The notes under the pieces are model-generated. The model had not been told where the DNA came from. It did no database searches and was given only the letters and a program-made list of their open reading frames with translations. From positions 1-40,762 of the IMG/VR virus record IMGVR_UViG_3300040971_000149: DNA of 40,762 bases; one strand, written 5' to 3'. This DNA comes from a virus (Duplodnaviria > Caudoviricetes). Positions 527-40,466 of the stretch are shown piece by piece (the stretch's first letter is position 1; each line of letters starts with the position of its first letter). Made by a program: the position numbers and the translations under genes.

Positions 527-1288
527 TTAATAGTTCGTGATAAACACTTCTTTGGCAGGCTTCACCCCTTTACCCACCGTGTACGTCAGTGTTTCGCTCT
601 CAATTCTGAAATCGCGAAAGATATCACGGACCTCAGGGACATCATTCAGCGTCAGCAAAAACTTGCCCCGCACACCAGCCAGGATTTCCCGCAGTCGGGC
701 GAAGTCGTCGCGGCTGAACATCTCCTTGCCGTAATAATCCTCACAACCCCAGTAAGGTGGATCCACAAAGAAGAACGTCTCCGGGCGGTCATATTTGGCG
801 ATGACATGGTCGTATGGCAGGCACTCCACGTAGGCCCGCGACAGGCGCAGATGTGCGCCGGACAGATCCTCCTCAATACGCAAGAGGTTCAACTTCGGCG
901 GCCGAGTCACGGCGGTGCCGAAGCTCGGGTTTACAATGCGGCCACCAAAACAACACTTCTGCAAATAAAAGAACCTGGCAGCGCGCTGCACATCCGTCAG
1001 CGTCTCTGGTTCCACCCGCTTCATCCGGTCAAACTCGTCTCGGCTGACCAGCATCCACTTGAAGTAGCGGATAAACTCTTCCAGATGATGCTGGACAACC
1101 CGGTAGAGGGTGACCACATCGCGGTTCAGATCATTGATCACCTCGACCTCGGATTCGGGCTTGCGAAACAAGACCCAAGCCCCGCCCGCGAACGCCTCCA
1201 CGTAACAACCATGTTCCGGGATCCGCGCGATGATGCGCTTCGCGAGCTGTGACTTGCCTCCGATCCATCCTGACAGTGGACTTTTCAT
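527..1288 (-). CDS. D12-class (Dam-like) N6-adenine DNA methyltransferase
   Basis: WIGGKS, EAFAGGAWV (SAM-binding), INDLN and DPPY motifs; occupies the Mu mom position. Confidence 0.92.
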   Translation of the reverse strand: MKSPLSGWIGGKSQLAKRIIARIPEHGCYVEAFAGGAWVLFRKPESEVEVINDLNRDVVTLYRVVQHHLEEFIRYFKWMLVSRDEFDRMKRVEPETLTDVQRAARFFYLQKCCFGGRIVNPSFGTAVTRPPKLNLLRIEEDLSGAHLRLSRAYVECLPYDHVIAKYDRPETFFFVDPPYWGCEDYYGKEMFSRDDFARLREILAGVRGKFLLTLNDVPEVRDIFRDFRIESETLTYTVGKGVKPAKEVFITNY

Positions 1289-2794: not shown

Positions 2795-5452
2795 TTAATA
2801 CCTCCAGGCAAGGGTTGATCCGTCAACGTTCCACGCCAGGGTTGAGCCATCAGCGTGCCACGCGTAGCTGGCTGTGGACCCATAATGAATCATGACCCAC
2901 GGGCCACGGGCCGCGCCGACAGCCGCCACGCGGATGATGGTCGCGTTGCCATAGATGGCCTGGGCGGTGTATGAGTTTGTCGATGTTTCGCCGGTTCTGA
3001 TCCATGACTCGTAATCATTGCTTTGTTCAATAATATAGTGATCTGCCCAAGGCGCATGGTTCCAACTCAACAGCATGGCCGTCGGATTAAGGGGCATTGA
3101 TCGAGAGATGAGCCCAGACAGGGCCGGTGCGAGTTGATACCCGGCAAGCTGGCTGGTTTCCGCCGGCGGGATGGCTACGCCATCCTCGATTGTGTGCACG
3201 CGCGGATCTTCGTTGACACACTCGATTTCGATGTCCGTCATGCTCCTGGGCACAACTGACAGGACGCGGGCAGGCTGATAGACCGTCGCGCCCCAGCCGA
3301 ATATAACATGGGTCCGCTCCCCGTCCGTGCCGGTGTATGGCGCCCATGCCCCTCCGTTGGTCGGGTCATCCACCAACTCGACTTCATTGGCTGTAGCCCC
3401 TGCGACCACTTGGAACGGGCCGTGAAATTCGCCGATACGAGTCCGGAACGCTACATAATGCGTTTCCCCGTCGGCCCATGTCAGATCCTCATCAAGCGTC
3501 GCCGTCAGAGTGGCCGCGTCCCAGGCGACAACCTCGGCAGACTGCCCCCAGCCGGGCATGACATGCTGCACCGCGATCAGGTCGCCCATGGACAGGGACT
3601 GGCCCTCGGCGTCAGCCGTGAATGAAATCAGCTTGCGCCGCCAGAGGTTGCACCCGACTTTGTAGAGGCCTTCGCGGCCAGCCTGGTTTCGGTCCACAAC
3701 CCCGAACAGCTCCACCGTGGGTGGCTTGGTGGTCGTGGCACCTGCCACGCCGACAGTCACGCGCCGGTCAGCCCAGGCCACGCCATCGAAATACTTGACT
3801 GTGACTTTGTCCGCCGTCTCTTCGCTCGGCATGACGTAGTTGATCTTGAACGATCCCTTACGGATGTTGCGCATGCTGAACACGGCCACGGGCAGGCTCT
3901 CGGCCTGGTCCCGCACCACGCGCAGAATCCCGCCTTGGACATAGGGCTTGACCCGCCCGGCCTCCAGGATGGCGCACAACGCTTCCCATGCCCCGCGCAG
4001 GGAATCGAACCGGCCGTTGAATTCATCCCCTCTGGTTGCCAGGATGCCGTTCAGGGTCAGCAGCGCGTCCAGGTCGATGCGGCTTTCCGGCCAGATTTCC
4101 CGGGCCAGATGCGCGGCAGCCCACGCAATGGACCTCGTTGCGGCGCGATCACTCCAGGCATAGCCAGTCCACTGCTCCAACTCGCGCGTGGCGATCAGGC
4201 GGACCTTGCGGGCGCTCATACTCGACAACTGGTTCGTGGCCCGCATTTTGACCGCGACGTGGGTCATGTCGTCCCAGGTCGTGTTGTCGCGCAGATAGGC
4301 CCTGAGCCCTGCCCACGCGATGGCGTGTCCGTAGCGCGTGTCGGTCTCTTCCACGTTCGTGCGCTTGACGCGGGCCTTGTAGCGACCGGGAGTGACGGCC
4401 ACCTTTTCGGAGTACCGCTGCGGTGTGGGCGTGCTGGCCGTGTAGGTCACTGACCTGGCCGTATACCACGAACCGATTTCAGTGCCGAAATCGTCGATCT
4501 GACACAGCATCAGGTCCGCCGTGACCGTCATGGACGAGAGCGACCCGTTGTCGTTGGCGTGATAAAGCCCGCGCGCGCAAACTAGGTCGAAGCCGATATG
4601 TTGCGACACAGTCTCTGGTGCCGAGGCCGTGAAGTCGCCGACGTTCGTGTTGTAGGGCATTTCGTTGCCGGCCACTTCGGTGGCTGTGACCACCGCCCCA
4701 GGAAACATACCCAGCGATTCGCCGGGATTGATGACCTCGTATTCGACTTCGTCGAACTCGGAAAACGGCGTGTCCTCAATGCCGATGGACTCGATATCAT
4801 ACCAGCCGCGCCCGACGCACAGGAGCATGTAGAGGTATTGCTCCTGGCCGTGGTATTCCATGTATGGTTGGGCGGCCAGGTCCGGATAAAAGGCCATGCG
4901 CCCAAAGTGCTCCGGGATGGCTTGTTCCAGCCTGGCCATGTTGCCCTGGGCCTGCAGGTTATAGGTTGGGCTGGCCGTCTGCGTTCCGGACCCGAGGGCA
5001 AGGTTTTGGTTTTGCGCCGGGAGCAGTGCGTTGACCAGGGCCGAGCCGACCATCATGACTGCGCCTGCCCCGATAGCCCCCCACGCGGATCCTCCAAGCC
5101 CAAGAAGAGTCCCGCTGCCAGCGAACATGGCGGCCCCTCCGATCCACGCCGCCATGCCAGCAGACAGCGCCACAACCGCCAACATGGCGATCATCCTGAC
5201 CGGGTTCGACCCACCGCCTCCACCCTGTGGGATGGCCTCCACGTCCACGAACATGAGCACCTGTCCGCGCTCGACGACGACATGCCAGTCGCGGCGCATG
5301 ACCGGCTTGCCGTTCAACAGGGCGATGTACGGCCGTCGCCAGTCCGGGGCCAGGGCCTGGATTTGCTGGCCGGGCACCAGCGCCGTGACGGTCCGATTCT
5401 GCGGACAGAGGGCATGGCGTAAAGTCACGAGCGTGGCGCAATCAGTCCGCAT
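2795..5452 (-). CDS. Host-specificity / central tail tip protein (lambda J/TipJ-like, N-terminal I-like region)
   Basis: 885 aa; ubiquitin-like start, PQGGGGG linker, IPEHFGR...YPDL motif, C-terminal FN3-like segment; synteny. Confidence 0.85.
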   Translation of the reverse strand: MRTDCATLVTLRHALCPQNRTVTALVPGQQIQALAPDWRRPYIALLNGKPVMRRDWHVVVERGQVLMFVDVEAIPQGGGGGSNPVRMIAMLAVVALSAGMAAWIGGAAMFAGSGTLLGLGGSAWGAIGAGAVMMVGSALVNALLPAQNQNLALGSGTQTASPTYNLQAQGNMARLEQAIPEHFGRMAFYPDLAAQPYMEYHGQEQYLYMLLCVGRGWYDIESIGIEDTPFSEFDEVEYEVINPGESLGMFPGAVVTATEVAGNEMPYNTNVGDFTASAPETVSQHIGFDLVCARGLYHANDNGSLSSMTVTADLMLCQIDDFGTEIGSWYTARSVTYTASTPTPQRYSEKVAVTPGRYKARVKRTNVEETDTRYGHAIAWAGLRAYLRDNTTWDDMTHVAVKMRATNQLSSMSARKVRLIATRELEQWTGYAWSDRAATRSIAWAAAHLAREIWPESRIDLDALLTLNGILATRGDEFNGRFDSLRGAWEALCAILEAGRVKPYVQGGILRVVRDQAESLPVAVFSMRNIRKGSFKINYVMPSEETADKVTVKYFDGVAWADRRVTVGVAGATTTKPPTVELFGVVDRNQAGREGLYKVGCNLWRRKLISFTADAEGQSLSMGDLIAVQHVMPGWGQSAEVVAWDAATLTATLDEDLTWADGETHYVAFRTRIGEFHGPFQVVAGATANEVELVDDPTNGGAWAPYTGTDGERTHVIFGWGATVYQPARVLSVVPRSMTDIEIECVNEDPRVHTIEDGVAIPPAETSQLAGYQLAPALSGLISRSMPLNPTAMLLSWNHAPWADHYIIEQSNDYESWIRTGETSTNSYTAQAIYGNATIIRVAAVGAARGPWVMIHYGSTASYAWHADGSTLAWNVDGSTLAWRY

Positions 5453-15179: not shown

Positions 15180-15590
15180 GGTGTCCTCCTGAAACTGGTA
15201 TTCGAAATGTTCGTTGTCGGCCGCGAACTGGACCGGCCCCAGCCCGGCAATGGCCGGAGGCACGGCTCCGAGCAGGGCAACGTGCCGCAAGCTCCCGTCC
15301 GCGAAAAACGATGCGGACTTCTGCTTGAAGTGTCCGGCGCCAACGATCTGGCGCACTGCGTCCGGGATCTGTTTGTACCTGGCCTGCAACGCGTCGCCGG
15401 ATCGGCGCAGCGCTTCCACCCAGCCGTAGGCCGGGGCGTTGTCCTTGGGGTGGCCAAAGCACAGCGGGACCTCCCGCTGGGAGGGGGCAAACTGGGTCAC
15501 GGCCCGGTCCAGGTCGGCCTTGGTGAACGTCCGTGTCCGGCCTTGGCTGTCCGTGTGCGTACCGGCGCGAAAGATGGTGTCCCAGGGCAT
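14775..15590 (-). CDS. Head maturation protease/scaffold (Mu I-like)
   Basis: W..IFRAGTH, P...GHP....PAYGWV, LRHVALLGA.PPA..GL motifs; coiled-coil C-half. Confidence 0.85.
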   Translation of the reverse strand: MPWDTIFRAGTHTDSQGRTRTFTKADLDRAVTQFAPSQREVPLCFGHPKDNAPAYGWVEALRRSGDALQARYKQIPDAVRQIVGAGHFKQKSASFFADGSLRHVALLGAVPPAIAGLGPVQFAADNEHFEYQFQEDTMTVEELQKQLAEEKKLREVAEGRATTAEAEVKRVGSEFSAQQEAQRKADRTAKFKDLVAAGKALPTDEPKVVEFAKALGDRGQEICFSASEGKKDLEAHFWDFMASRPKHGLFDEFAAPAQDKTVDFGNLTAHV

Positions 15591-15865
15591 TATTCCTCCA
15601 TGGCCTCTTTCAGTGCGCCGCCAGCCCGGAAACGCACGGCCTGGCGCTCGGGCACCTCGACCGGGCGACCGTCACGCGGGTTGCGCACAGTGCGAGCGGC
15701 AAGGCGTTTCACGGCCAGTTTGCCCAAGCCCGTGAGCGGCACGCTCTTGCCCTGGACCAGGGCCGGGATGGCCACCCCTGGCAAGGCGTCCAGGACCCGG
15801 CCGCACGCGGCCTGGCTCTCTCCGGACAGCTCCGCCAGCGCGGCGATCAGTTCCGATTTCTTCAT
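15590..15865 (-). CDS. HU/IHF-family DNA-binding protein
   Basis: MKKSELI...V.LTGLGK...R.AR..RNP.DG....VP....VRF..G..LK; GGAGG RBS. Confidence 0.92.
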   Translation of the reverse strand: MKKSELIAALAELSGESQAACGRVLDALPGVAIPALVQGKSVPLTGLGKLAVKRLAARTVRNPRDGRPVEVPERQAVRFRAGGALKEAMEE

Positions 15866-16106
15866 CGACCCTCCTTGCCCGCATGCGGGCCACCCTGTCG
15901 GCGGGTCATCGGTGGCATCCAACACGCCACCCTGACCGGCCGTATTTCGCGTTTTAGACTAGGTTTATACTAGTCTGAACGACCCGCCCCGACCCAGCGT
16001 CCACCCCGACCCCCTGAAACGCGACAGAAGGCGAATACGGGGCAAAACCGTTTTCACCTGGTCTGGGGAGGTGGATGGTTGGGTGCGGATCGTCGTCATG
16101 AGCGCG

Positions 16107-26785: not shown

Positions 26786-27232
26786 TCATTCCTCAAAATC
26801 CCCCATCATCGCCTCGACATCACTGGCCCGCACCCGAACCGGCTTATCCCTCAGGGCCACCAGTTTGCCCTCGGCCACCAGGTTGTAGACCTGTCGCTCG
26901 GAGATGTTCAGGCAGTAGGCCACTTCGTCCACGCGCAGGGTGTGCTTGCGGCTGGCCAGTTCCTGGGGCGAGAGCTGGAACGGCTCGCCGGTCTGCGGGT
27001 AGTTGATCGGCAGCGGCGGTGGGAACCCGGCCGGGCGGTTCAGGCTGCAGGCGCGCGGGCAGGCGATACAGCAAAAAACATCGCCCCGTGTGAACCAGTA
27101 GGGGCGCTGATGCGGCTTGGCCTGAGCGTTGGGACACCCCAGCCGCTCGTAAACATCCGGCCTGGGCTGGGCGTCGTAGGGCCGCCAGCCGTCGGCGACC
27201 AATCGGATCACGGTGCGAATCAGGTTTGACAT
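26786..27232 (-). CDS. DNA-binding protein with C-terminal excisionase/MerR-like HTH; candidate late activator
   Basis: LRVDEVAYCLNISERQVYNLV.EGKL; Cys cluster upstream; GGAGG RBS; last early gene (Mu C position). Confidence 0.75.
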   Translation of the reverse strand: MSNLIRTVIRLVADGWRPYDAQPRPDVYERLGCPNAQAKPHQRPYWFTRGDVFCCIACPRACSLNRPAGFPPPLPINYPQTGEPFQLSPQELASRKHTLRVDEVAYCLNISERQVYNLVAEGKLVALRDKPVRVRASDVEAMMGDFEE

Positions 27233-27582
27233 AACACCTCCAAAAATTCTCTCAGAGCCTGGGCCTCGCGCTCGGCCTGCATCCGGCAGCCCCGGCACCC
27301 GCGCCGATCGGGCCTGCGGCACCTGGCGCAGCGGGCCGCGATGATGACCCCGGCCATGTCCTGGGCGGACGGAACGCTGATCCGCGCCGGACTCGCCGGG
27401 CCGCCCTCCAGTGCCTCGCGGATGATGGCCGACTGCCGGGCCACGTTGCCCGGGTAGCGGTCATTCATGACCTGGTAGACCGTGGACCGCGTCAGCTCCG
27501 GATGCCGCTTGCAAAACGCATGGATCGATCCGTGCCGGGCCACCACGGCCTGGCGCAGGGTGTGTCCAGGCGTGTCACCCAT
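27220..27582 (-). CDS. Hypothetical protein with HTH-like region and Cys cluster
   Basis: LTRSTVYQVMNDRYPG and CARC...CRGC; overlaps both neighbours. Confidence 0.65.
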   Translation of the reverse strand: MGDTPGHTLRQAVVARHGSIHAFCKRHPELTRSTVYQVMNDRYPGNVARQSAIIREALEGGPASPARISVPSAQDMAGVIIAARCARCRRPDRRGCRGCRMQAEREAQALREFLEVLCQT

Positions 27583-28087
27583 TCGAGGCCGCCTTGCGGT
27601 CAAAAGCCCGCTCCCGGGCCTGCAGGTCCGTGAGCAGGCGCTTGATCTGATCCGGATCATGCAGCCAGGCAAAGGACTCGACCAAAAATTCCCGCCGCAC
27701 GCGGGTTTCCAGGCTACTCATGGAGTAGCCGAGCTTCTTCCAGATGGCCAAAATGGCCCGCTTCTGCGGACCGTGCTCATCACCGTCATGGACTTCGATC
27801 CAATCCGGACGGGCCTTGGGCGTGACCCGGGTATTGCCGTGGGAGCGCTTGGCGTCGGACGGTTCGCGCTGGGCGCAGGACGCGCCCTTGGCCGTGAACA
27901 CGGCGCCCATGTCCGCCAGCATGTCCACCAGCCTGTTCAGCTCCGCATACGAGAGCTTGGTAGAGCTGGTCTTGCCCCGGAACGTGTTGCCGAGCAGGGC
28001 GCGGTAGGTCTCTTCGTCCATGTCCGGAAGCTGCTTCCTGGCGATGGCGATCTTGGCGTAAAGGGGCTGTCTCGATAGCGGCGACAT
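27575..28087 (-). CDS. gemA: GemA (Mu gp16/DUF1018) family regulator
   Basis: AKIAIARKQL..MDEETYR.LL....GKTS...LS..EL and I.A.W..L motifs. Confidence 0.85.
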   Translation of the reverse strand: MSPLSRQPLYAKIAIARKQLPDMDEETYRALLGNTFRGKTSSTKLSYAELNRLVDMLADMGAVFTAKGASCAQREPSDAKRSHGNTRVTPKARPDWIEVHDGDEHGPQKRAILAIWKKLGYSMSSLETRVRREFLVESFAWLHDPDQIKRLLTDLQARERAFDRKAASNG

Positions 28088-28110
28088 ATGCTCTCCGTTG
28101 TATCGTACGA

Positions 28111-28773
28111 TCAATTTTCTTCTGTCGCCGGCATTGGCTCGTCACACCGGCCGCAGCGCAACAACGCAGCAGGCTTGGCCCAGGCCTTCAGCCCACAGGA
28201 TCCGCAGGCGTAGCAGACCTTGTTTTTGGTGGCCTTCTTCGCCGCCAGGCCAGGGGCGACCGGAGCCGCGTTGATCAGCAACGCGTCGTGCGTCTCGGCC
28301 AGAAAATTCGCGGCCACATGGGCGAATGCGCCGCCCGACATGATGTAATGCGAGCAGGACTGCCCGGTCTGCTTGCCTCCATTGTCGCCAGTCGTGGAGG
28401 GCATCAGCCCGACTTCTTTCATTTTGTCGGCCCACTCCCTGTTGTGGTAGGCCCGGTTTGGCGGCGTGCCGAATTCCTGCTGCCAGAGGTGCACCATCTC
28501 GTGCACCAGCGTTGACAGGCTGCGCTCCGTGGTGATTTCGGTCCGGAAATAATCAGGATTCATGGCGATCTCATGGACACGCGCATCGCTGTCCTGGCGC
28601 AACACGAACCGCTGCGGGCTGAAGTATCCCAGGGCCTTCTTGTGCCGATGCAACGTCATGATCACCTGCGGCAGCTCGCCGCCGAACAGGTGACGATTGA
28701 AGTGGTCATAGGCCTTCTGCAGCAGGTCGTACTGCTGCTTGGAAATCTTGCGATCGGCCATGACGTTGCTCAT
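28111..28773 (-). CDS. SprT-like zinc metalloprotease
   Basis: FN..LF.G.LP, STLVHEMVH.WQ, YHN.EW..KM and C-terminal CxxC...CxxC. Confidence 0.88.
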   Translation of the reverse strand: MSNVMADRKISKQQYDLLQKAYDHFNRHLFGGELPQVIMTLHRHKKALGYFSPQRFVLRQDSDARVHEIAMNPDYFRTEITTERSLSTLVHEMVHLWQQEFGTPPNRAYHNREWADKMKEVGLMPSTTGDNGGKQTGQSCSHYIMSGGAFAHVAANFLAETHDALLINAAPVAPGLAAKKATKNKVCYACGSCGLKAWAKPAALLRCGRCDEPMPATEEN

Positions 28774-30386: not shown

Positions 30387-30987
30387 GGCCATCCTCCTGA
30401 CGTGCCACACCCAGCCGTTCCCGCCAGCCCTTGATCCCCTCGGAAATGGGCACCGGCGTGTATTCCTGCCCCGTCCCCGTAGGGGCACGTGTACCCGCCA
30501 GGGTGGACCTGCGTGTCTGCCCTGACCCGTGTGTCTGCCCTGGTTCGGAGTGGTTGTCCGGCCGATGCTTGGCCTCTTTCTCCCGCGTCACATTACCCTG
30601 GTGCCAAGCCTTCTCGGCCAGCTCATAGGCAATCTTGCGGACCAGGTTCGGGTTTTCCAAGGGCCGCCGCAGGTTTGGCATGTCCAGCACGCGCTGGACG
30701 GCCTGCACCCAATACCCAGGCCCGTTCGGCACCACGCGCCCGTTGTCCCACTGGATCTGCGGATCGTTGACCAGGGCCGCCAATTCTTTGATGAGCCGTT
30801 CAGCCCGCTGCCAGGTCATGACCTGCTTGGCGTCCGGCTTGCGGTACAGGCCCAGATAGGACCACACCAGCCGATGCAGATCCACGGGCAACGCCGCCGC
30901 AGCGACCACGGCGGCCTTGGCATCATCGCCCTGCAGGTAGGCCTCTATCGAGGCGCGGAATCCGCAGTGCGGACAGGTGCCGTTCAT
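30376..30987 (-). CDS. Mu-like phage early hypothetical protein
   Basis: N-terminal CPHCG, Y.GL.R......W.R...L..EL pattern; ATGA coupling; tail contains REP-derived sequence. Confidence 0.8.
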   Translation of the reverse strand: MNGTCPHCGFRASIEAYLQGDDAKAAVVAAAALPVDLHRLVWSYLGLYRKPDAKQVMTWQRAERLIKELAALVNDPQIQWDNGRVVPNGPGYWVQAVQRVLDMPNLRRPLENPNLVRKIAYELAEKAWHQGNVTREKEAKHRPDNHSEPGQTHGSGQTRRSTLAGTRAPTGTGQEYTPVPISEGIKGWRERLGVARQEDGHAE

Positions 30988-31499
30988 TTGTGTCTCTCCC
31001 CGCTGGGGCGCATGAACACCAGCCAGTGGGTCATGCCGCGGCGACCGCTGACTTGGCCGCATAGGGGCGGATGCGGCGCAAGAGGGAGTATCTCGGACAG
31101 TTTGATCTGTGTCTCCGACCACTTGAAGACCAGCACGCCATCTGGGTGCAGGACGCGGAAACACTCGCGGAACCCGGCAGCCATGTCGGCCTGCCATGTA
31201 TCGGAGAGTAGACCGTACCGCGCCGCAAGCCATGACCGTGGCCCTGCGCGCTTGATGTGCGGCGGATCGAACACGACCAGGGCGAAGGCATCATCCGGGA
31301 ACGGCAGCGCCCGGAAGTCCATGATCTGGTCCGGCTCAATACGCAGTGTGCGCTGGCCATCCTCGCGTCCATGGCTGCGGTCGGTGACTGTGACTGTCTC
31401 CGCACGACAATCACCATAGATCGCATCGGGGTGCCGCGAATCGAACCACATGGATCGTGGACCGCAGCAAGGGTCAAGGATGCGCGGACGACTGCTCAT
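30984..31499 (-). CDS. Small SAM-dependent (DNA amino-) methyltransferase
   Basis: ILDPCCG..SMWFD, DFR.LPF.D..F.LVVFDPPH and FKW.E motifs. Confidence 0.85.
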   Translation of the reverse strand: MSSRPRILDPCCGPRSMWFDSRHPDAIYGDCRAETVTVTDRSHGREDGQRTLRIEPDQIMDFRALPFPDDAFALVVFDPPHIKRAGPRSWLAARYGLLSDTWQADMAAGFRECFRVLHPDGVLVFKWSETQIKLSEILPLAPHPPLCGQVSGRRGMTHWLVFMRPSGERHK

Positions 31500-31903
31500 T
31501 CCGTCACCAGCTCGATGTCTTTGAACATCTTTTCATACTGGATCCGCGCCGCGCGGACGGATGGGAAAAATGGCGTAAATAAGACTATTTTCTTATTCAT
31601 GTCACCAAAGAGCTCTCTTGCTTCGCGTTTTCCGTACCGCTTGGCCCACTTCGTGGCGGCGTCCCGTTGTTTTTTCGGCCACAGGTACTTTTCAATGCGG
31701 CGCATGTAGCACTGTTCCGGGCAGGGCTTTTTGTGATTCAACCATTCACCCCGCACCCAGCCATCCACATACACCCAGATGACCATCTTCATTTTGTCTG
31801 TGGCGACTTGTAGAGTCACTTCGTGGTCATCCATGCGTAAACGCGCACTGGCGCCAGGCCAGCGCAGATTGTCTTCGACAGCCTTCCAGTCTTCGCGTGT
31901 CAT
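31496..31903 (-). CDS. Hypothetical protein
   Basis: ATGA coupling on both sides (MTREDW...). Confidence 0.75.
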   Translation of the reverse strand: MTREDWKAVEDNLRWPGASARLRMDDHEVTLQVATDKMKMVIWVYVDGWVRGEWLNHKKPCPEQCYMRRIEKYLWPKKQRDAATKWAKRYGKREARELFGDMNKKIVLFTPFFPSVRAARIQYEKMFKDIELVTE

Positions 31904-32097
31904 CTCACCCGCTCCCTGATCCTCCCCCACGTCAGCTGACAAAGCCGATCGGGGTCGGTGATGGTTTTGCCGCAGAATCCGAGGTTTTCACCCCGCTTGC
32001 CTTTTCGCTCGATCCACCCCGCGCAATGATTTTCACAATAGGCGCGGGGCACGTCTGAAATTTTGGGTACATCGGAATCAGCCGGGAGATTGTGCAT
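31900..32097 (-). CDS. Small Cys-containing hypothetical protein
   Basis: GGAGG RBS; stop overlaps the next ATG. Confidence 0.55.
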   Translation of the reverse strand: MHNLPADSDVPKISDVPRAYCENHCAGWIERKGKRGENLGFCGKTITDPDRLCQLTWGRIRERVR

Positions 32098-32161
32098 TCA
32101 AACCCCTCCACGAACGTCGTCTGCATGATCTGGATGAAATCACCGTCCATCGGACATCCAC

Positions 32162-32223
32162 TGGCTGCTCATCAGGCCCGGGCCGCCACGCCCGGACGAC
32201 AGCCCCAAGGGGCTGTTTCGCAG
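32162..32223 (-). ncRNA. Type II hammerhead ribozyme
   Basis: CUGC-GAAA-CAGCCCC-UU-GGGGCUG-UC^GUCCGGGC-GUGGCG-GCCCGGGC-CUGAUGA-GCAG-CCA: complete core, three stems and a possible loop I/3' tail pseudoknot. Confidence 0.92.
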
Positions 32224-32226
32224 GGG

Positions 32227-32826
32227 TCAAACCGCCGCCATATCGAGCGGCACGTTCACGTACCGATCGCCATTGCCCACCCGCTCCAGGAGCCGGAAAT
32301 AGGCCGTGGTGCCCGTCACCTGCAGGCTGTCCGAAATGGCCTCCATGGCCCGATGCCAGCGCTCATCGTCGATGTTCAGCCGCCGCAGGCCGAGGATGCG
32401 GCCCGTGTTGATGCGGCCCTCTTTGTCCACCTGGAAGGCGTCGTTGATGAGCGCCTGCAGCTCGGAGCGGCTGCCCTGGGTCCATTCGCGGATGCATTCG
32501 TCGATCAGGGCCTTGGCCGCCTGCAGGCGCTCGTCAAAGGTCAGGTTCTCGCTGATCTGGCGGCGCAGCTTGAAGCGGCCGTCAAAGCTCATCAGCGTCA
32601 CGTTCCCCTTCTGGCCGCCCACGGTGGCCCCGTATTTCTCGGCGGCCAGGGCCACGAAGGCCTCTATGTCGCCCATGATCTCACCCTTGAGCTGGCGGAT
32701 CTGCGCTTGCAGGGCCTTGATTTTCTCGGCCTTTTCAACCACCAGCTCGTCACGGGCCAAATCGATGGGCTGGATCTGTTCAATGGGCACCAGGTGGCCC
32801 AGGGCGTTCTGCTTGTAACCGTCCAT
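32227..32826 (-). CDS. DUF3164-like protein
   Basis: GY..NA.G.LVP...I..ID..RDELV, GG.KGNVTL.SFDG, FDERLQ.AK.LIDEC motifs. Confidence 0.85.
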   Translation of the reverse strand: MDGYKQNALGHLVPIEQIQPIDLARDELVVEKAEKIKALQAQIRQLKGEIMGDIEAFVALAAEKYGATVGGQKGNVTLMSFDGRFKLRRQISENLTFDERLQAAKALIDECIREWTQGSRSELQALINDAFQVDKEGRINTGRILGLRRLNIDDERWHRAMEAISDSLQVTGTTAYFRLLERVGNGDRYVNVPLDMAAV

Positions 32827-33249: not shown

Positions 33250-33788
33250 GACGCGTCCTCCAGCTCCTTGCAGGCCTCGGCCATGGTCCGCAGGGCCTCG
33301 CCCATGGTCTGCAGGGCTTTTTTGCGCCGGATCTGGCGCAATTTCGCGGCCTTGGCCTCGTCATCGGGCAGGGTCACGGGGTCCACGACCATCTGCACGC
33401 GGCCGTCTGGCAGCCTGCGCACGATCTCCTGGGTCTCCAGGGTCGTGGTCCACTGCCGCGCATAGCCACGGCTGGCCCCGGTCAGTTCCATCAGATCCTC
33501 GACGCTGACCACGCGCCGGGCGCGCAGGATGCTCCACATCTTGGCCCGCAGCTGCACCTTCTCGGCCCGTCTGGCCCATCCGTAGCGCCCGATCTCGACC
33601 CGCGTGACCTCTCCGGACCGCAGCATGTCGCGCAGGGCCGCCTGCACCATGGCCCGCACCTTGCGCCCGGCGACCATATCCGCCGGGGCCGCGTGGATCG
33701 CGGCCTGGGTCAGCTCCGTCACCGTGGCCTGGCCGCGTTGCTCCAGGGCCTGGCGCACCAAATCAGCAAATGATCCCGTCCGTCCCAT
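33246..33788 (-). CDS. Hypothetical winged-helix-like protein
   Basis: Directly after the ATPase; MW.ILR..R..S..DL..LTGAS..Y pattern. Confidence 0.75.
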   Translation of the reverse strand: MGRTGSFADLVRQALEQRGQATVTELTQAAIHAAPADMVAGRKVRAMVQAALRDMLRSGEVTRVEIGRYGWARRAEKVQLRAKMWSILRARRVVSVEDLMELTGASRGYARQWTTTLETQEIVRRLPDGRVQMVVDPVTLPDDEAKAAKLRQIRRKKALQTMGEALRTMAEACKELEDAS

Positions 33789-34498
33789 CAGTTCCCCCTC
33801 AGCAGCTGCTTGAGCGCGATCCGCACCATTTCCCGGTCTACATTCTGCCCGCCCTTGCCCTTGGCCATTGGCACCAGAGTGGTGGCCAGACGCCGCACTT
33901 CCCGGAAATCTCCGCCCGTGTCCTTGGCCGCCAGCTCGGCCGCTCCCTTGTCGAGGCGCAGCCCGGCCACCTCGGCAGCGTAGAAGACGATGTCGCTGGC
34001 CCCGATGGGCTCGAACTCCACCACCTGAAACACGCGGCTCCAGACCCGGCGCTCGGCCTGCAGGTAGCTGATCAGATCGACCTCGCCCACAAAGACGATG
34101 GGCGATATTGACAGATCCGTCAGGTCACGCGCGAGGTCCAGGAATCTGGGCGGCAGTTTCTCCGGTTCGTCCAGAATGATGATCCGCGGCCGCACGACGA
34201 GGCGGTCCAGCACGGCCGTGAACGCGGCGGCCTTGGTCCGGGGTGGCGTCAACACGCCAAGCTCCCGGGCCAGTGCGCGCAAAAACTCCATCTCAGACGA
34301 GGTCCAGATGGTTAAAACGCGCATGTAAATGGCCTGATGCTGGGCCGCGTACCACTGGGACGTCCGCGATTTGCCGAACCCGGCAGGGCTGAACACAACC
34401 CCAAACCGGCCCTCGCCCTCGGACAGGGCCAGCGTGTCCATCAGGACCTCGTAGTTGCGGACGTTCCGCGTCTTGACAAAGGACGGGTTGAGCTTCAT
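33788..34498 (-). CDS. Transposition AAA+ ATPase (MuB-like)
   Basis: Walker A SPAGFGKS, Walker B IIILDE, R..SR and GGDFR motifs; follows the transposase. Confidence 0.9.
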   Translation of the reverse strand: MKLNPSFVKTRNVRNYEVLMDTLALSEGEGRFGVVFSPAGFGKSRTSQWYAAQHQAIYMRVLTIWTSSEMEFLRALARELGVLTPPRTKAAAFTAVLDRLVVRPRIIILDEPEKLPPRFLDLARDLTDLSISPIVFVGEVDLISYLQAERRVWSRVFQVVEFEPIGASDIVFYAAEVAGLRLDKGAAELAAKDTGGDFREVRRLATTLVPMAKGKGGQNVDREMVRIALKQLLRGN

Positions 34499-34561
34499 GC
34501 TTGCGTCTCCTTTTGGTTTTAGGCCTGTCGCGCGGCGGTCACCGAGCGGCGGGCCGTTTTT

Positions 34562-36841
34562 TTATGAATGGGCCTGGGCCTCTGTCGCCGGCACGGCGTG
34601 CAGCAGCGCCAACTTCATCCTGAATTCCTCAAAATATCCGCTGAGCTGGCCGTATCTGGCCGTCTGTTCGAAGTAGCGCATGAAGGCCGAGAACTCCGCC
34701 GGGATCAGCATGCCCTGGGCCTCGGCATCGAGCAGCATCTCGTACCGATCTTCCTCCGGGTACGTGCCGCGCACGTCCGTCCAGAACTGATCCGCCGCGC
34801 TGATGGCGTAGGACTGCCAGTCCGGCTCGGCCGCTTCGGGCTCCGGGTCCGGCGCGGGCTGATTCATGGCCTGGAGTTCGGCCAGCTCGGCCGCGAAATC
34901 GTCATCAGTGGTGGGTAGGACCGGCGCGGTGGGGCGGCCTGGCACGGGCTGGGCTGCTGGCGATTCGCCCTGTGCGGCTCCGCCCGTCAGGCCTATGCGC
35001 TCCAGGCTGGCCGCATATCCGGGCATGATCTCGCCCGTCAGCAGCTCCGTGGCCGTGGCGCTGGCCATCTTCTCCGCATGCTTGCGCATCTCCAGGCTCA
35101 GCTTGAGCAGGCGTTGATCGTCATCGGAGCCCAGGACCTTGGCCATGGGGTTGACCTTGGCCTTGAGCTGCGCCGCGCAGATGAATGACCCGTCCAGCTC
35201 GTACACGTCCACGCTGGTCAGATCCTGCGGGTCGTATTTCACGATCACATCGTGCTTGCGGCCGTACAGGCGCGAATCGAAATAGGTGATTTCCTTGGCG
35301 GAACCGACCAGGCTGCCCGGCAAGGACACCTGACACCGGGACACCTGGCGCGAGCGGGCCGTGAGCATGCACTCCCGCAGGCCGTCCAGGTGCTCCGCGC
35401 TCAGACCGTCACCGCGCCCGGCGTCAAACACCTCGCGCGGGCAGCGGCCCTGCAGGTGGCTGCGCGGCTGGGGCTGCTCCACGTAGTAATCCACCCAAGA
35501 GGCCACGGCCCGGTGCGCTTCCGGCAAGGTCATCACCGGGCTGCCGCTGGCCTCCCAGATCGCCCGGTGCGCGAACTCTCCGCGTTTTTGATAGGCTGGC
35601 TTGAGGTCGATGCACGAGCCCGTTCCGCCCGGCATCAGCTCTTCCAACTGTCTGAGATAGCCGAAAAATCGTTCCACGGTCTTGGATTGCCCGTGATAGG
35701 CCCAGGCAAAGGTGGTCTTCATGCCGAGGCGGGTAAAAAGCCCGTCCACGCCGCTCTGGCTCAAGTCGCCCGTGAAGTGCGTGCCCTTGAAGGCCCGGCC
35801 GTTGTCCAGATAGGCCACCTGCGCGGGCTTACCGAGGCGCAGCAGCGCCCGGCGCATGGCCGCGGTGATGACCAGCGTGTTTTCCTCCGGCGCGATCTCC
35901 CAGCCCACGGGGTAATTGGAGGCCATGTCGTACCACATGACCAGGGTCATGCGGCACGGGCGGCCCGTGAACGGGTGGATGATCTGAAAATTGAGGCGAT
36001 GCCCGTCCGCCACCAGCACCGCGCCGGGCCACAACATGCCCAGATCGCGGTCCACGTACATGGCCACCTTGTCGTTCCAGGCCTTCACGCCCTCGCGGCA
36101 GAAGACCCACACGTCCTGGTTGCGCTCCTGAAAGGTGGTCAAAAAACGGCGGAACGTGGCGTCCGATGGCACGTCCTGGCCCTGGGCCGCCAGTAGCTGC
36201 TGGGTCATGGAGATGCAGGTGGACAGGCGCACCCGGTTCGGGTGCAGGGCCAGACGCAGCACGGCCTGCTGCATGGCCTCGGTCAGGCTGGACTGCCCGC
36301 GCAGGGCCAGCCCGCGCCGGTCAGCCAGGTGGAACGCGTCGGCCGTGCGGGTCAGGGTCACCTTCCAGCGCTCCAAAGTCTTCCAACTGACCGGGCCGAT
36401 CTCCCGGAGCAGCTCCGGATAGGCCCCGGCCAGGTAGGCCTGGATGAATCCGTCCCGGGCATGGGCCTTGTTGGCCGAGCGGGACACGGCGTCCGTGTAG
36501 TAGCGGACCAGATCGGCCCGCAGCATGGCCTTGCGCTTGCGCGGGATGTCCAGCACACGCGGGGCCAAGGCGGGCACGGCCGGAGCCAGGGAGCGGCACC
36601 GCACCGGGGCCGAAGTGGCCACGGCCAGGGCCGTGGTTTCTGCCGTGCAAATGGCCTGCTTGGCCTCCCGAGCCACCAGTGCCGCGCGCACGTCCGAGGG
36701 CAGGGCGTCCAGGGTGAAAACGCGCCCGCCGCCCTTGCCAGGACGCTTCCGGAAGGGCCAGCCTTCCTTCTTCACCCTGTAGTCCACGGACTGGGTCTTG
36801 ATGCCCAATGCTTCGGCGATCTGCGCGGTTGTGTAGCTCAT
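34562..36841 (-). CDS. Mu-type DDE transposase
   Basis: N-terminal HTH with GKGGG; catalytic VADGH, YLDNG and KTVERFF; C-terminal YDP.DL..V.VY...G.FIC.A. Confidence 0.95.
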   Translation of the reverse strand: MSYTTAQIAEALGIKTQSVDYRVKKEGWPFRKRPGKGGGRVFTLDALPSDVRAALVAREAKQAICTAETTALAVATSAPVRCRSLAPAVPALAPRVLDIPRKRKAMLRADLVRYYTDAVSRSANKAHARDGFIQAYLAGAYPELLREIGPVSWKTLERWKVTLTRTADAFHLADRRGLALRGQSSLTEAMQQAVLRLALHPNRVRLSTCISMTQQLLAAQGQDVPSDATFRRFLTTFQERNQDVWVFCREGVKAWNDKVAMYVDRDLGMLWPGAVLVADGHRLNFQIIHPFTGRPCRMTLVMWYDMASNYPVGWEIAPEENTLVITAAMRRALLRLGKPAQVAYLDNGRAFKGTHFTGDLSQSGVDGLFTRLGMKTTFAWAYHGQSKTVERFFGYLRQLEELMPGGTGSCIDLKPAYQKRGEFAHRAIWEASGSPVMTLPEAHRAVASWVDYYVEQPQPRSHLQGRCPREVFDAGRGDGLSAEHLDGLRECMLTARSRQVSRCQVSLPGSLVGSAKEITYFDSRLYGRKHDVIVKYDPQDLTSVDVYELDGSFICAAQLKAKVNPMAKVLGSDDDQRLLKLSLEMRKHAEKMASATATELLTGEIMPGYAASLERIGLTGGAAQGESPAAQPVPGRPTAPVLPTTDDDFAAELAELQAMNQPAPDPEPEAAEPDWQSYAISAADQFWTDVRGTYPEEDRYEMLLDAEAQGMLIPAEFSAFMRYFEQTARYGQLSGYFEEFRMKLALLHAVPATEAQAHS

Positions 36842-39267: not shown

Positions 39268-39310
39268 CTATTGATCGTACGAAACAAAAAAGGGGCCGCC
39301 AGGCCCCATT
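39268..39310. repeat. 43-bp direct repeat, copy 1 (includes a minus-strand terminator)
   Basis: CTATTGATCGTACGAAACAAAAAAGGGGCCGCCAGGCCCCATT; matches 40425-40466. Confidence 0.9.
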
Positions 39311-39350: not shown

Positions 39351-40409
39351 GTGCATCAATTTGTAATCTCGAAACATGAAGACTTTTTTGACGCAGCGAT
39401 CTTGCTCGAAACAAAGGAAATAAGCTCTGACAATATTAGAATTTCTGAAGATTTCTATTTCATCTTAAAAATTGATGACCCAAAATGGGGTGACTCAGAA
39501 TTATTTGATTACAAAAAAGCATCTGTAATTCTTAAGTTGCAGGAAGACATACTAGGTATTTATAATAAAATTTCAAAGAAGAACGTACAGATAAAGGACT
39601 TGCAATATCATGAAGATCTAGTTATAACCGTCAAGGTTGAAAATGGATGTATTCAGTATCTAACAAAATTTGCAGAAATATATGAAAAGATCACAAACAA
39701 GATGAACAACGATCAACAATTCATTTGCTTTCTGTTACTTTCAGGCGTTGCATTCGCTGGGATATCATATTGGGCAATCACGTCCCTGTATAAAACGTAC
39801 AAATCAAACGAGCTTGAATTAAAGAAAAAAGAACTTGAACTAAAAGCAAAAGAACTTGACTCAAAAGAAAAAGAGCGCGTTCTCGATTCTTTAGACAACG
39901 CTATTGATGCGCTGTCTCAAAATACAGCTACGCCGCGATTCCTTTCACAGCATATTTCCGATTTTGGCACGGTATCACTCTGCAACGAAGACCCAGTATC
40001 AAAGTCCGAACTTCCGCGCATGCCTGATCTCAAGGACAAGGAACCTCTCAAATCGATCACAATGCATATAGATGGCGTATATCCACTGAAAAAATACGAT
40101 TTCGAAACGCAAAATCTTCAGATATCTATTGGGACAAGGGGCGTTTGGTTCTCAACAAAAAGCATGCTCGACTCTGAAAAGGAAAAAATAAGAGAACTTA
40201 TTGACGAGTCACTTCTGCTTGAGTGCTCTCTCAGCGAAAAGCTCCAAATCAATGCAACTAAAACAGAAGATAATAAGATCATAGGAATAATCATCGGTAT
40301 CGGCGAACCCAGGGCGACAGCGGTAAGCTATATTGAATTTCTGAAGGCAAAATTTTCTGAACCTCACCGCGAAAAGGTCCGCGTTCTCCCGATCAAGATA
40401 CCAAGATAA
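39351..40409 (+). CDS. Low-GC moron protein with one TM segment and coiled coil
   Basis: AAGGAG RBS with GTG; strongly AT-rich; FICFLLLSGVAFAGISYW TM, then ELELKKKELELKAKE. Confidence 0.85.
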   Translation: MHQFVISKHEDFFDAAILLETKEISSDNIRISEDFYFILKIDDPKWGDSELFDYKKASVILKLQEDILGIYNKISKKNVQIKDLQYHEDLVITVKVENGCIQYLTKFAEIYEKITNKMNNDQQFICFLLLSGVAFAGISYWAITSLYKTYKSNELELKKKELELKAKELDSKEKERVLDSLDNAIDALSQNTATPRFLSQHISDFGTVSLCNEDPVSKSELPRMPDLKDKEPLKSITMHIDGVYPLKKYDFETQNLQISIGTRGVWFSTKSMLDSEKEKIRELIDESLLLECSLSEKLQINATKTEDNKIIGIIIGIGEPRATAVSYIEFLKAKFSEPHREKVRVLPIKIPR

Positions 40410-40424
40410 AGGTAAAAATTACGC

Positions 40425-40466
40425 CTATTGATCGACAAAGCAAAAAAGGGGCCGCCAGGCCCCATT
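40425..40466. repeat. Direct repeat, copy 2 (includes a minus-strand terminator)
   Basis: CTATTGATCGACAAAGCAAAAAAGGGGCCGCCAGGCCCCATT; 1 indel and 2 substitutions versus copy 1. Confidence 0.9.

What the first reader, a model, noticed from the sequence alone, without database searches (positions are those of the whole stretch)
32162..32223. Self-cleaving hammerhead ribozyme inside the early operon
Seen: a complete type II core on the coding strand, starting 3 nt after the DUF3164-like stop. Stem II is CUGC/GCAG, followed by GAAA, a 7-bp stem III, the GUC triplet, an 8-bp stem I and CUGAUGA; loop UGGC can pair with the 3' GCCA. Predicted cleavage is between 32198 and 32197. Known: hammerheads occur in bacterial prophage regions, with largely unresolved roles. 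Inference: it splits the polycistronic mRNA into a transposition half and an accessory/late-activator half with different stability, which could time lytic development.
Basis: partly seen in the sequence, partly recalled or inferred. Interest (0 to 1): 0.8.

Follow-up and report, generated by a model that had tools for sequence, protein, structure and literature searches.

The report
Hammerhead ribozyme in Mu-like phage operon
A genuine self-cutting "hammerhead" RNA motif sits between two early genes of a Mu-like phage and likely cuts its long early message in two; such motifs are already known in this phage group, but what the cut is for is untested, and common laboratory phages carry a close copy.

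Summary
Real, of a known kind. Window 32159-32223 (-) is a type II hammerhead (Rfam RF02276, 73 bits against a cut-off of 37), 3 nt after the DUF3164 stop of a Mu-like transposable phage; predicted cut 32198/32197. Enrichment of such ribozymes near Mu-like phage genes is in print (PMC10085705), as is the transcript-processing idea (PMC3088659), and this scan found the same on other DNA. Added here: 69 of 72 viral contigs found by the RNA motif alone are Mu-like; the ribozyme lies after the transposition genes (77 of 78) and before gemA (85 of 91), abutting the upstream stop (median 1 nt) and the next start, whatever the flanking genes. It is optional (12 of 34 DUF3164-gemA intervals). Likely role: one cut that frees the accessory-gemA block as a separate message. 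Timing of lysis is unsupported. JBD30, RcapMu and LESphi4 carry it, D3112 and DMS3 a close match, so the role can be tested.

The parts
32159..32223 (-). Type II hammerhead ribozyme, whole Rfam model
   Evidence: RF02276, 73 bits, E 1.6e-13
32220..32223 (-). Stem II 5' strand; 32221-32220 make the conserved 2 bp, 32223-32222 an optional extension
   Evidence: sequence; family counts
32199..32219 (-). GAAA core strand and 7-bp stem III with CUUG loop
32197..32200 (-). GUC triplet 32200-32198; predicted cut between 32198 and 32197, 29 nt after the DUF3164 stop
   Evidence: sequence; triplet GUC in 161 of 162 relatives, fixed by the search pattern in most; cleavage itself not shown
32176..32197 (-). 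8-bp stem I; loop 32189-32184 holds the pseudoknot strand UGGC (32188-32185)
   Evidence: all 8 pairs show double changes among 57 distinct relatives
32162..32175 (-). CUGAUGA core strand, stem II 3' strand and pseudoknot tail GCCA (32165-32162)
32227..32826 (-). DUF3164 gene, upstream neighbour
   Evidence: PF11363 E 6.7e-83
31932..32150 (-). 72-aa ORF starting 12 nt after the ribozyme tail, weak ribosome site; only its first ~30 codons are conserved
   Evidence: (8 loci)
31900..32097 (-). 65-aa Cys-rich ORF with a good ribosome site, overlapping the 72-aa ORF in another frame
   Evidence: (13 loci)
33788..36841 (-). Mu-like transposase A and ATPase B, upstream block
26786..28114 (-). gemA (27575-28114), an unnamed ORF and an HTH_17 protein: end of the downstream block
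   Evidence: PF06252, PF12728

Best explanation
A canonical type II hammerhead ribozyme fills the gap between the DUF3164 stop codon and the next gene of a Mu-like phage early operon, and it likely cuts the long early transcript once, between 32198 and 32197, releasing the accessory-gemA block as a separate message. Shown: the motif, its covarying stem I, its strand, and a family-wide place after the transposition genes and before gemA, tight against the upstream stop and the next start. Inferred: it folds during transcription with a 2-bp stem II and a loop I-tail pseudoknot and cleaves without protein. The upstream piece (A, B, DUF3164) would keep its stop codon and end in the stem III hairpin with a cyclic phosphate; the downstream piece would begin with a 5'-OH and the stem I hairpin just ahead of a ribosome site. 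In hosts that decay RNA through RNase E, such an end is poorly recognised (recalled), so the distal genes would be uncoupled from the decay and translation of the proximal ones. It is an optional tuning module, not an essential switch.
For: Rfam 73 bits. Stem I: 99% of cells paired, 8 of 8 pairs with double changes, 0 of 500 shuffles reach the covariation score; pseudoknot keeps pairing at its two free positions in 159 and 162 of 162, and one relative, L174, changes both sides. 69 of 72 contigs found by the RNA pattern alone carry Mu-like early genes on the same strand; copies lie after MuA 70 of 71, MuB 77 of 78, DUF3164 70 of 71, before gemA 85 of 91 (labels checked on 28 of 28 sampled proteins). 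Upstream stop within 15 nt in 155 of 165 and a start within 25 nt in 156 of 169, against 12% and 27% at random positions; 138 of 147 without the one array: no room for a promoter or terminator. Stop-to-cut distance 21-50 nt, so no message loses its stop. No promoter-like site on the - strand between 36860 and 25500. Published: 14 of 18 consensus hammerheads cleaved in vitro, and clustered prophage ones cleaved in vitro and in E. coli (PMC3088659).
Against: No cleavage or RNA end was observed for this or any locus here. Only 12 of 34 complete DUF3164-gemA intervals carry one, so it is dispensable. The window has lost the ~200-bp gene that follows the ribozyme in L002, L003 and L008 and is among the 12 of 153 with no clear ribosome site next to it. 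The loci are related phages, not independent trials, and the pattern was drawn from Mu-like examples, which favours a Mu-like result. The random-position control is lenient, since genes in these operons are packed tightly anyway. RNase content of the host was not examined.
Confidence: 0.6

Rival explanations
1. Translation-gated switch. A ribosome ending at the upstream stop would cover the stem II strand and GAAA, and one starting at the next gene would cover the pseudoknot tail, so cleavage would depend on translation, or cleavage would free the next ribosome site.
For: Stop within 5 nt of stem II in 124 of 147; the SD-like motif starts at the first base after GCC, which is a pseudoknot base, in 42 of 153, and 1-6 nt after it in 53; in 19 of 153, and in JBD30, the start lies 8 nt or less after the tail with no SD motif between.
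Against: Tight packing is the rule in these operons (annotations), so compaction explains the same distances; footprint sizes are recalled; in the window the adjacent start is weak and predicted to be paired.
Confidence: 0.15
2. DNA-level cassette boundary. The conserved stop-ribozyme-ribosome site unit would act as a short homology that lets accessory genes be swapped, with cleavage secondary.
For: 94 distinct upstream/downstream family pairs; two-copy phages flank single genes; one contig has 24 copies between small ORFs.
Against: The catalytic core is kept while stems vary with compensation, which is selection on RNA, not DNA identity; most carriers have one copy; the interval is as variable in phages without a ribozyme (12 to 5479 bp over all 34). 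No breakpoint test was run.
Confidence: 0.1
3. Relief of polarity. Cutting the nascent RNA would detach Rho loaded on upstream RNA from the polymerase, so that the distal genes are transcribed.
For: Always in the middle of a long operon ahead of gemA; early transcripts of the related phage Fc02 dwindle distally (PMC9936078 passage; whether Fc02 has a ribozyme was not checked).
Against: Pure inference from recalled Rho biology; no Rho site was tested.
Confidence: 0.07
4. Neutral passenger, or slowed in this phage: the 4-bp stem II could out-compete the pseudoknot, and the gene it served is deleted.
For: G32165 conflict; lengthening stem II by one pair lowered activity in one tested construct (PMC3088659 passage); downstream deletion; absent from most relatives.
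Against: Core intact; the near relative L001 differs by a compensated pair in stem I; the same 5' extension is in L001 and L008, and L008 keeps the gene.
Confidence: 0.08

Closest known systems
Hammerhead ribozyme type II, Rfam RF02276 (Perreault et al. 2011, PMC3088659)
   Same: Open stem II, closed stems I and III, full core, 2-bp stem II, loop I-tail pseudoknot, intergenic in a prophage operon, proposed to process long phage transcripts.
   Different: Single copy here rather than a cluster; this sequence has not been assayed; optional 2-bp extension of stem II.
Self-cleaving ribozymes enriched near Mu-like phage genes (stated in PMC10085705, citing its refs 25 and 26, which I did not read)
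   Same: Exactly this context; the paper says the reason is unknown.
   Different: The passages I read give no position rule; the rule 'after A/B/DUF3164, before gemA, stop-abutting' comes and may already be visible in the supplements of those references.
Hammerhead II annotated in Pseudomonas phage LESphi4 (OQ594957.1, P41_nc1)
   Same: Same Rfam family, one gene ahead of gemA and the late activator in a Casadabanvirus.
   Different: Other flanking genes; Gam-type rather than DUF3164-type phage.
Engineered 5' insulator ribozymes (RiboJ type) and RNase III sites of T7 early mRNA (both recalled)
   Same: A cut just ahead of a ribosome site that gives a defined, structured 5' end.
   Different: Analogy of function only; neither was tested here.

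Membership tests
Hammerhead ribozyme type II (RF02276) | Score over the curated cut-off across the whole model | tested here: met
   73.0 against 37 bits, positions 1-66 of 66
Hammerhead ribozyme type II (RF02276) | Core CUGANGA, GAAA and NUH triplet | tested here: met
   CUGAUGA, GAAA, GUC in the sequence
Hammerhead ribozyme type II (RF02276) | Stems I and III closed by loops, stem II open | tested here: met
Hammerhead ribozyme type II (RF02276) | Pseudoknot between loop I and the 3' tail | tested here: met
   4 bp possible; one-sided changes keep pairing; one double change in L174; the two middle pairs were fixed by my pattern
Hammerhead ribozyme type II (RF02276) | Site-specific self-cleavage in Mg2+ | not testable with these tools
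   needs a bench assay
Mu-like transposable phage early operon | Transposase A, ATPase B and gemA in one direction; Mu-type head genes | tested here: met
   Mu-transpos_C, AAA_22, GemA, Portal_Mu, Phage_Mu_F, Mu_Gp36; phrog_310, phrog_296
Mu-like transposable phage early operon | Mor/C-type late activator after gemA | tested here: inconclusive
   no Mor family hit; an HTH_17 protein holds the place
Mu Gam-like end-protection protein (for DUF3164) | Sequence similarity to annotated Gam proteins | tested here: not met
   DUF3164 profile scores 1.6 and -0.8 bits on the JBD30 and RcapMu proteins; no PDB match; no fold comparison was run

The most novel reading that the evidence does not exclude
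Mu-like phages use a portable stop-ribozyme-ribosome site module as a translation-gated gate ahead of gemA and the late activator: ribosomes at the flanking stop and start compete with folding, and the cut decides how much activator message is freed, so self-cleavage sets the early-to-late transition. In D3112-type phages the next start lies 4 nt after the pseudoknot with no separate SD, so cleavage itself would switch on translation.
Probability: 0.15. Interest if true: 0.7.

Novelty: new member of a known kind. Interest (0 to 1): 0.3.

Why it matters
The RNA class and its link to Mu-like phages are known; the purpose of ribozymes in phage operons is described as open (PMC6765202, PMC10085705). 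This locus does not answer that. The useful result is that the module obeys a tight position rule and that single-copy examples sit in genetically tractable phages (RcapMu, JBD30, LESphi4; close matches in D3112 and DMS3), where one inactivating core change tests the role directly.

Tried and rejected
Expression: no RNA holder listed; the two runs laid were contigs of probable DNA from other organisms and say nothing on RNA ends. Earlier findings by sequence: none. DUF3164 as Gam: not supported by sequence. Other ribozyme classes in the same interval: no Rfam match other than Hammerhead_II in 47 of 47 DUF3164-found loci, apart from two CRISPR repeats far from the gene in L176. The 220-nt element after DUF3164 in L166: no Rfam match better than E 0.43, 0 of 76 pairs with double changes among 5 near-identical copies, and a 14-base scan gave 121 loci with no diverged homologue. 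A 4-bp stem II as the conserved fold: rejected. A fixed partner gene: rejected. A terminator at the site: none. Paper searches for a functional study of the ribozyme in a transposable phage found none; the library lacks most subscription papers. PMC5785228 was not held. PHROGs named 2 of 24 array ORFs, both of unknown function.

Full report
Observation. Rfam gives one match in the 40.8-kb window: Hammerhead_II at 32159-32223, 73 bits against a cut-off of 37, E 1.6e-13. A strict descriptor finds one site in the window and none in 60 shuffles. The cut is predicted 3' of C32198, 29 nt after the DUF3164 stop. One detail needs correcting: CUGC/GCAG and UGGC/GCCA share G32165. Among 162 distinct relatives the first two stem II pairs are always kept, the third in 42 and the fourth in 47, so the working fold is most likely a 2-bp (at most 3-bp) stem II plus the pseudoknot.

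Setting. The window is a Mu-like transposable phage: transposase A, ATPase B, DUF3164, accessory ORFs, SprT-like, gemA, an HTH_17 protein, then lysis, Mu-type head and tail genes, all on the minus strand. The nearest named genome with this DUF3164 is a Desulfomicrobium MAG at 87% identity, so that host is likely but not shown. No promoter-like site lies on the minus strand between 36860 and 25500 and no terminator-like site at the ribozyme, consistent with read-through transcription.

Structure evidence from relatives. On the 3' half of 60 of the 162 ribozymes (the window plus 59 drawn at random; 57 distinct rows) 99% of cells pair, all 8 stem I pairs show double changes, and 0 of 500 shuffles reach the covariation score; sliding the partners drops pairing to 18-57%. 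The pseudoknot shows only one-sided changes there, and its two middle pairs were fixed by my pattern; L174, found through its protein, changes both sides of one of them.

Position rule. A scan of viral contigs with the RNA pattern alone gave 132 loci from 12 of 64 parts of the collection, about 670 stretches estimated in all. 80 had long flanks; dropping 8 second windows on the same contig left 72. 69 of 72 carry a Mu-like early marker on the ribozyme's strand; two of the other three have short flanks and one is the array below. Counted per copy, the ribozyme lies after MuA in 70 of 71, after MuB in 77 of 78, after DUF3164 in 70 of 71 and before gemA in 85 of 91. Marker labels came from profiles seeded on the window's proteins; 28 of 28 sampled members, weighted to the weakest hits, had the expected Pfam domain. 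Among 172 distinct ribozyme-plus-flank sequences, an upstream stop lies within 15 nt in 155 of the 165 with usable flank (median 1 nt) and a start within 25 nt in 156 of 169, against 12% and 27% for 1210 random positions. Without the array the figures are 138 of 147, with 124 within 5 nt. An SD-like motif begins at the first base after the GCC tail in 42 of 153 and 1-6 nt after it in 53; 17 have one later, 31 have none and 10 have no start within 40 nt. The neighbours are not fixed: 52 upstream clusters among 139 genes and 58 downstream among 143, the commonest being phage HU upstream and DUF2786 downstream. Limits: these phages are related, the pattern was drawn from Mu-like examples, and genes here are tightly packed anyway.

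It is optional. Of 47 loci found through the DUF3164 protein, 34 hold the whole DUF3164-gemA interval; 12 of these carry a hammerhead (10 by my pattern; L173 and L174 by Rfam). Five pairs among the 34 look like the same phage. It follows the DUF3164 stop directly in 6 of 33 viral loci and in L169, L173 and L174. Close relatives differ: L166 has it just before gemA, L006 about 2.9 kb downstream, and L002 and L003 have two copies. In the window and L001 the ~200-bp gene that follows the ribozyme in L002, L003 and L008 is deleted, leaving a start 12 nt away with a weak ribosome site that is predicted to be paired.

Mechanism. Shown: motif, strand, covariation, position. From the literature: 14 of 18 consensus hammerheads cleaved in vitro, clustered prophage examples cleaved in vitro and in E. 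coli, and the pseudoknot was needed for speed (PMC3088659). Inferred: one co-transcriptional cut; an upstream piece that keeps its stop (stop-to-cut 21-50 nt in relatives) and ends in a hairpin; a downstream piece with a 5'-OH hairpin end just ahead of a ribosome site. That such an end resists RNase E-led decay is recalled, not tested. I put this processing reading at 0.6. Rivals are a translation-gated switch (0.15), a DNA cassette boundary (0.1), a passenger or slowed copy (0.08) and relief of Rho polarity (0.07).

What is known. PMC3088659 described type II hammerheads, the pseudoknot, their place between prophage genes of varying identity, and the processing idea (passages, section 6 and the Discussion read; supplements not opened). 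PMC10085705 states that the strongest gene associations of bacterial hammerhead and twister ribozymes are with Mu-like phage genes, reason unknown (passages); the two papers it cites were not read, and their supplements may already show the position rule. PMC6765202 calls the role in bacteria largely elusive (passages). PMC4378225 on Pseudomonas Mu-like genomes and PMC9936078 on Fc02 transcription do not use the words hammerhead or ribozyme respectively in their main text (passages). Eight searches found no functional study in a transposable phage. Earlier notes of this scan report the same kind of element, including in Mu-like prophages.

Testability. A Pseudomonas-type copy matches 145 of 50,697 phage records, 119 of them Pseudomonas phages, including D3112 and DMS3 at 94.7% over 87% of the query (those two were not scanned with Rfam). 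Rfam confirms it in JBD30 and RcapMu, and GenBank already annotates it in LESphi4. In these three and R960, gemA or its place and the late activator follow within one to five genes.

Verdict. Real; a new member of a known kind in a known context; interest 0.3, mostly for the position rule and the tractable carriers.

Noticed in passing
G001:C1:9932-17520 (L180; also L064, L065): A 57-kb viral contig holds 24 Rfam type II hammerheads in 7.6 kb on one strand, mostly 150-450 nt apart between small ORFs; no Mu-like marker within L064; 2 of 24 ORFs tested have a PHROG, both unknown. Similar arrays were noted earlier in this scan.
   Followed up: partly
L166:7595-7815; same in L004-L007 about 3595-3813: In Desulfomicrobium-type relatives the slot after the DUF3164 stop holds a 220-nt highly structured stretch (z -5.25) with two long hairpins and no Rfam match, ending at a ribosome site. 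It may be another processing signal or part of a short ORF; no covariation, no distant homologue found.
   Followed up: partly
window 31900-32150 (-): Two overlapping ORFs: the first ~30 codons are conserved in one frame and the Cys-rich remainder in another across L001-L003 and L008. Overlapping genes or a frameshift; L166 has the second alone with its own ribosome site.
   Followed up: partly
L185:7005-7080 (JBD30) and 19 of 153 loci: The next start codon lies 0-8 nt after the pseudoknot tail with no SD motif between, so the ribozyme's own 3' strand sits in the initiation region.
   Followed up: partly
L002 about 3660 and 3845: The ribozyme tail and the end of the next gene share a short repeat in L002, near the ends of the deletion seen in the window and L001.
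   Followed up: no
window 39292-39307 and 40448-40463 (-), ORF 39351-40409 (+): An identical terminator-like hairpin lies on both sides of a 352-aa AT-rich-looking ORF on the opposite strand (phrog_6191, unknown): a moron-like insert.
   Followed up: no
window 15590-15925 (-): The HU gene lies among the head genes here, whereas in many relatives HU is in the early operon and is the commonest gene just upstream of the ribozyme.
   Followed up: no
window 527-1288 and 30984-31499 (-): Two DNA methyltransferase genes, one at the tail end and one in the accessory block.
   Followed up: no
L061 about 480: The one copy lying upstream of the transposase gene, in a contig that has a second copy in the usual place.
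   Followed up: no
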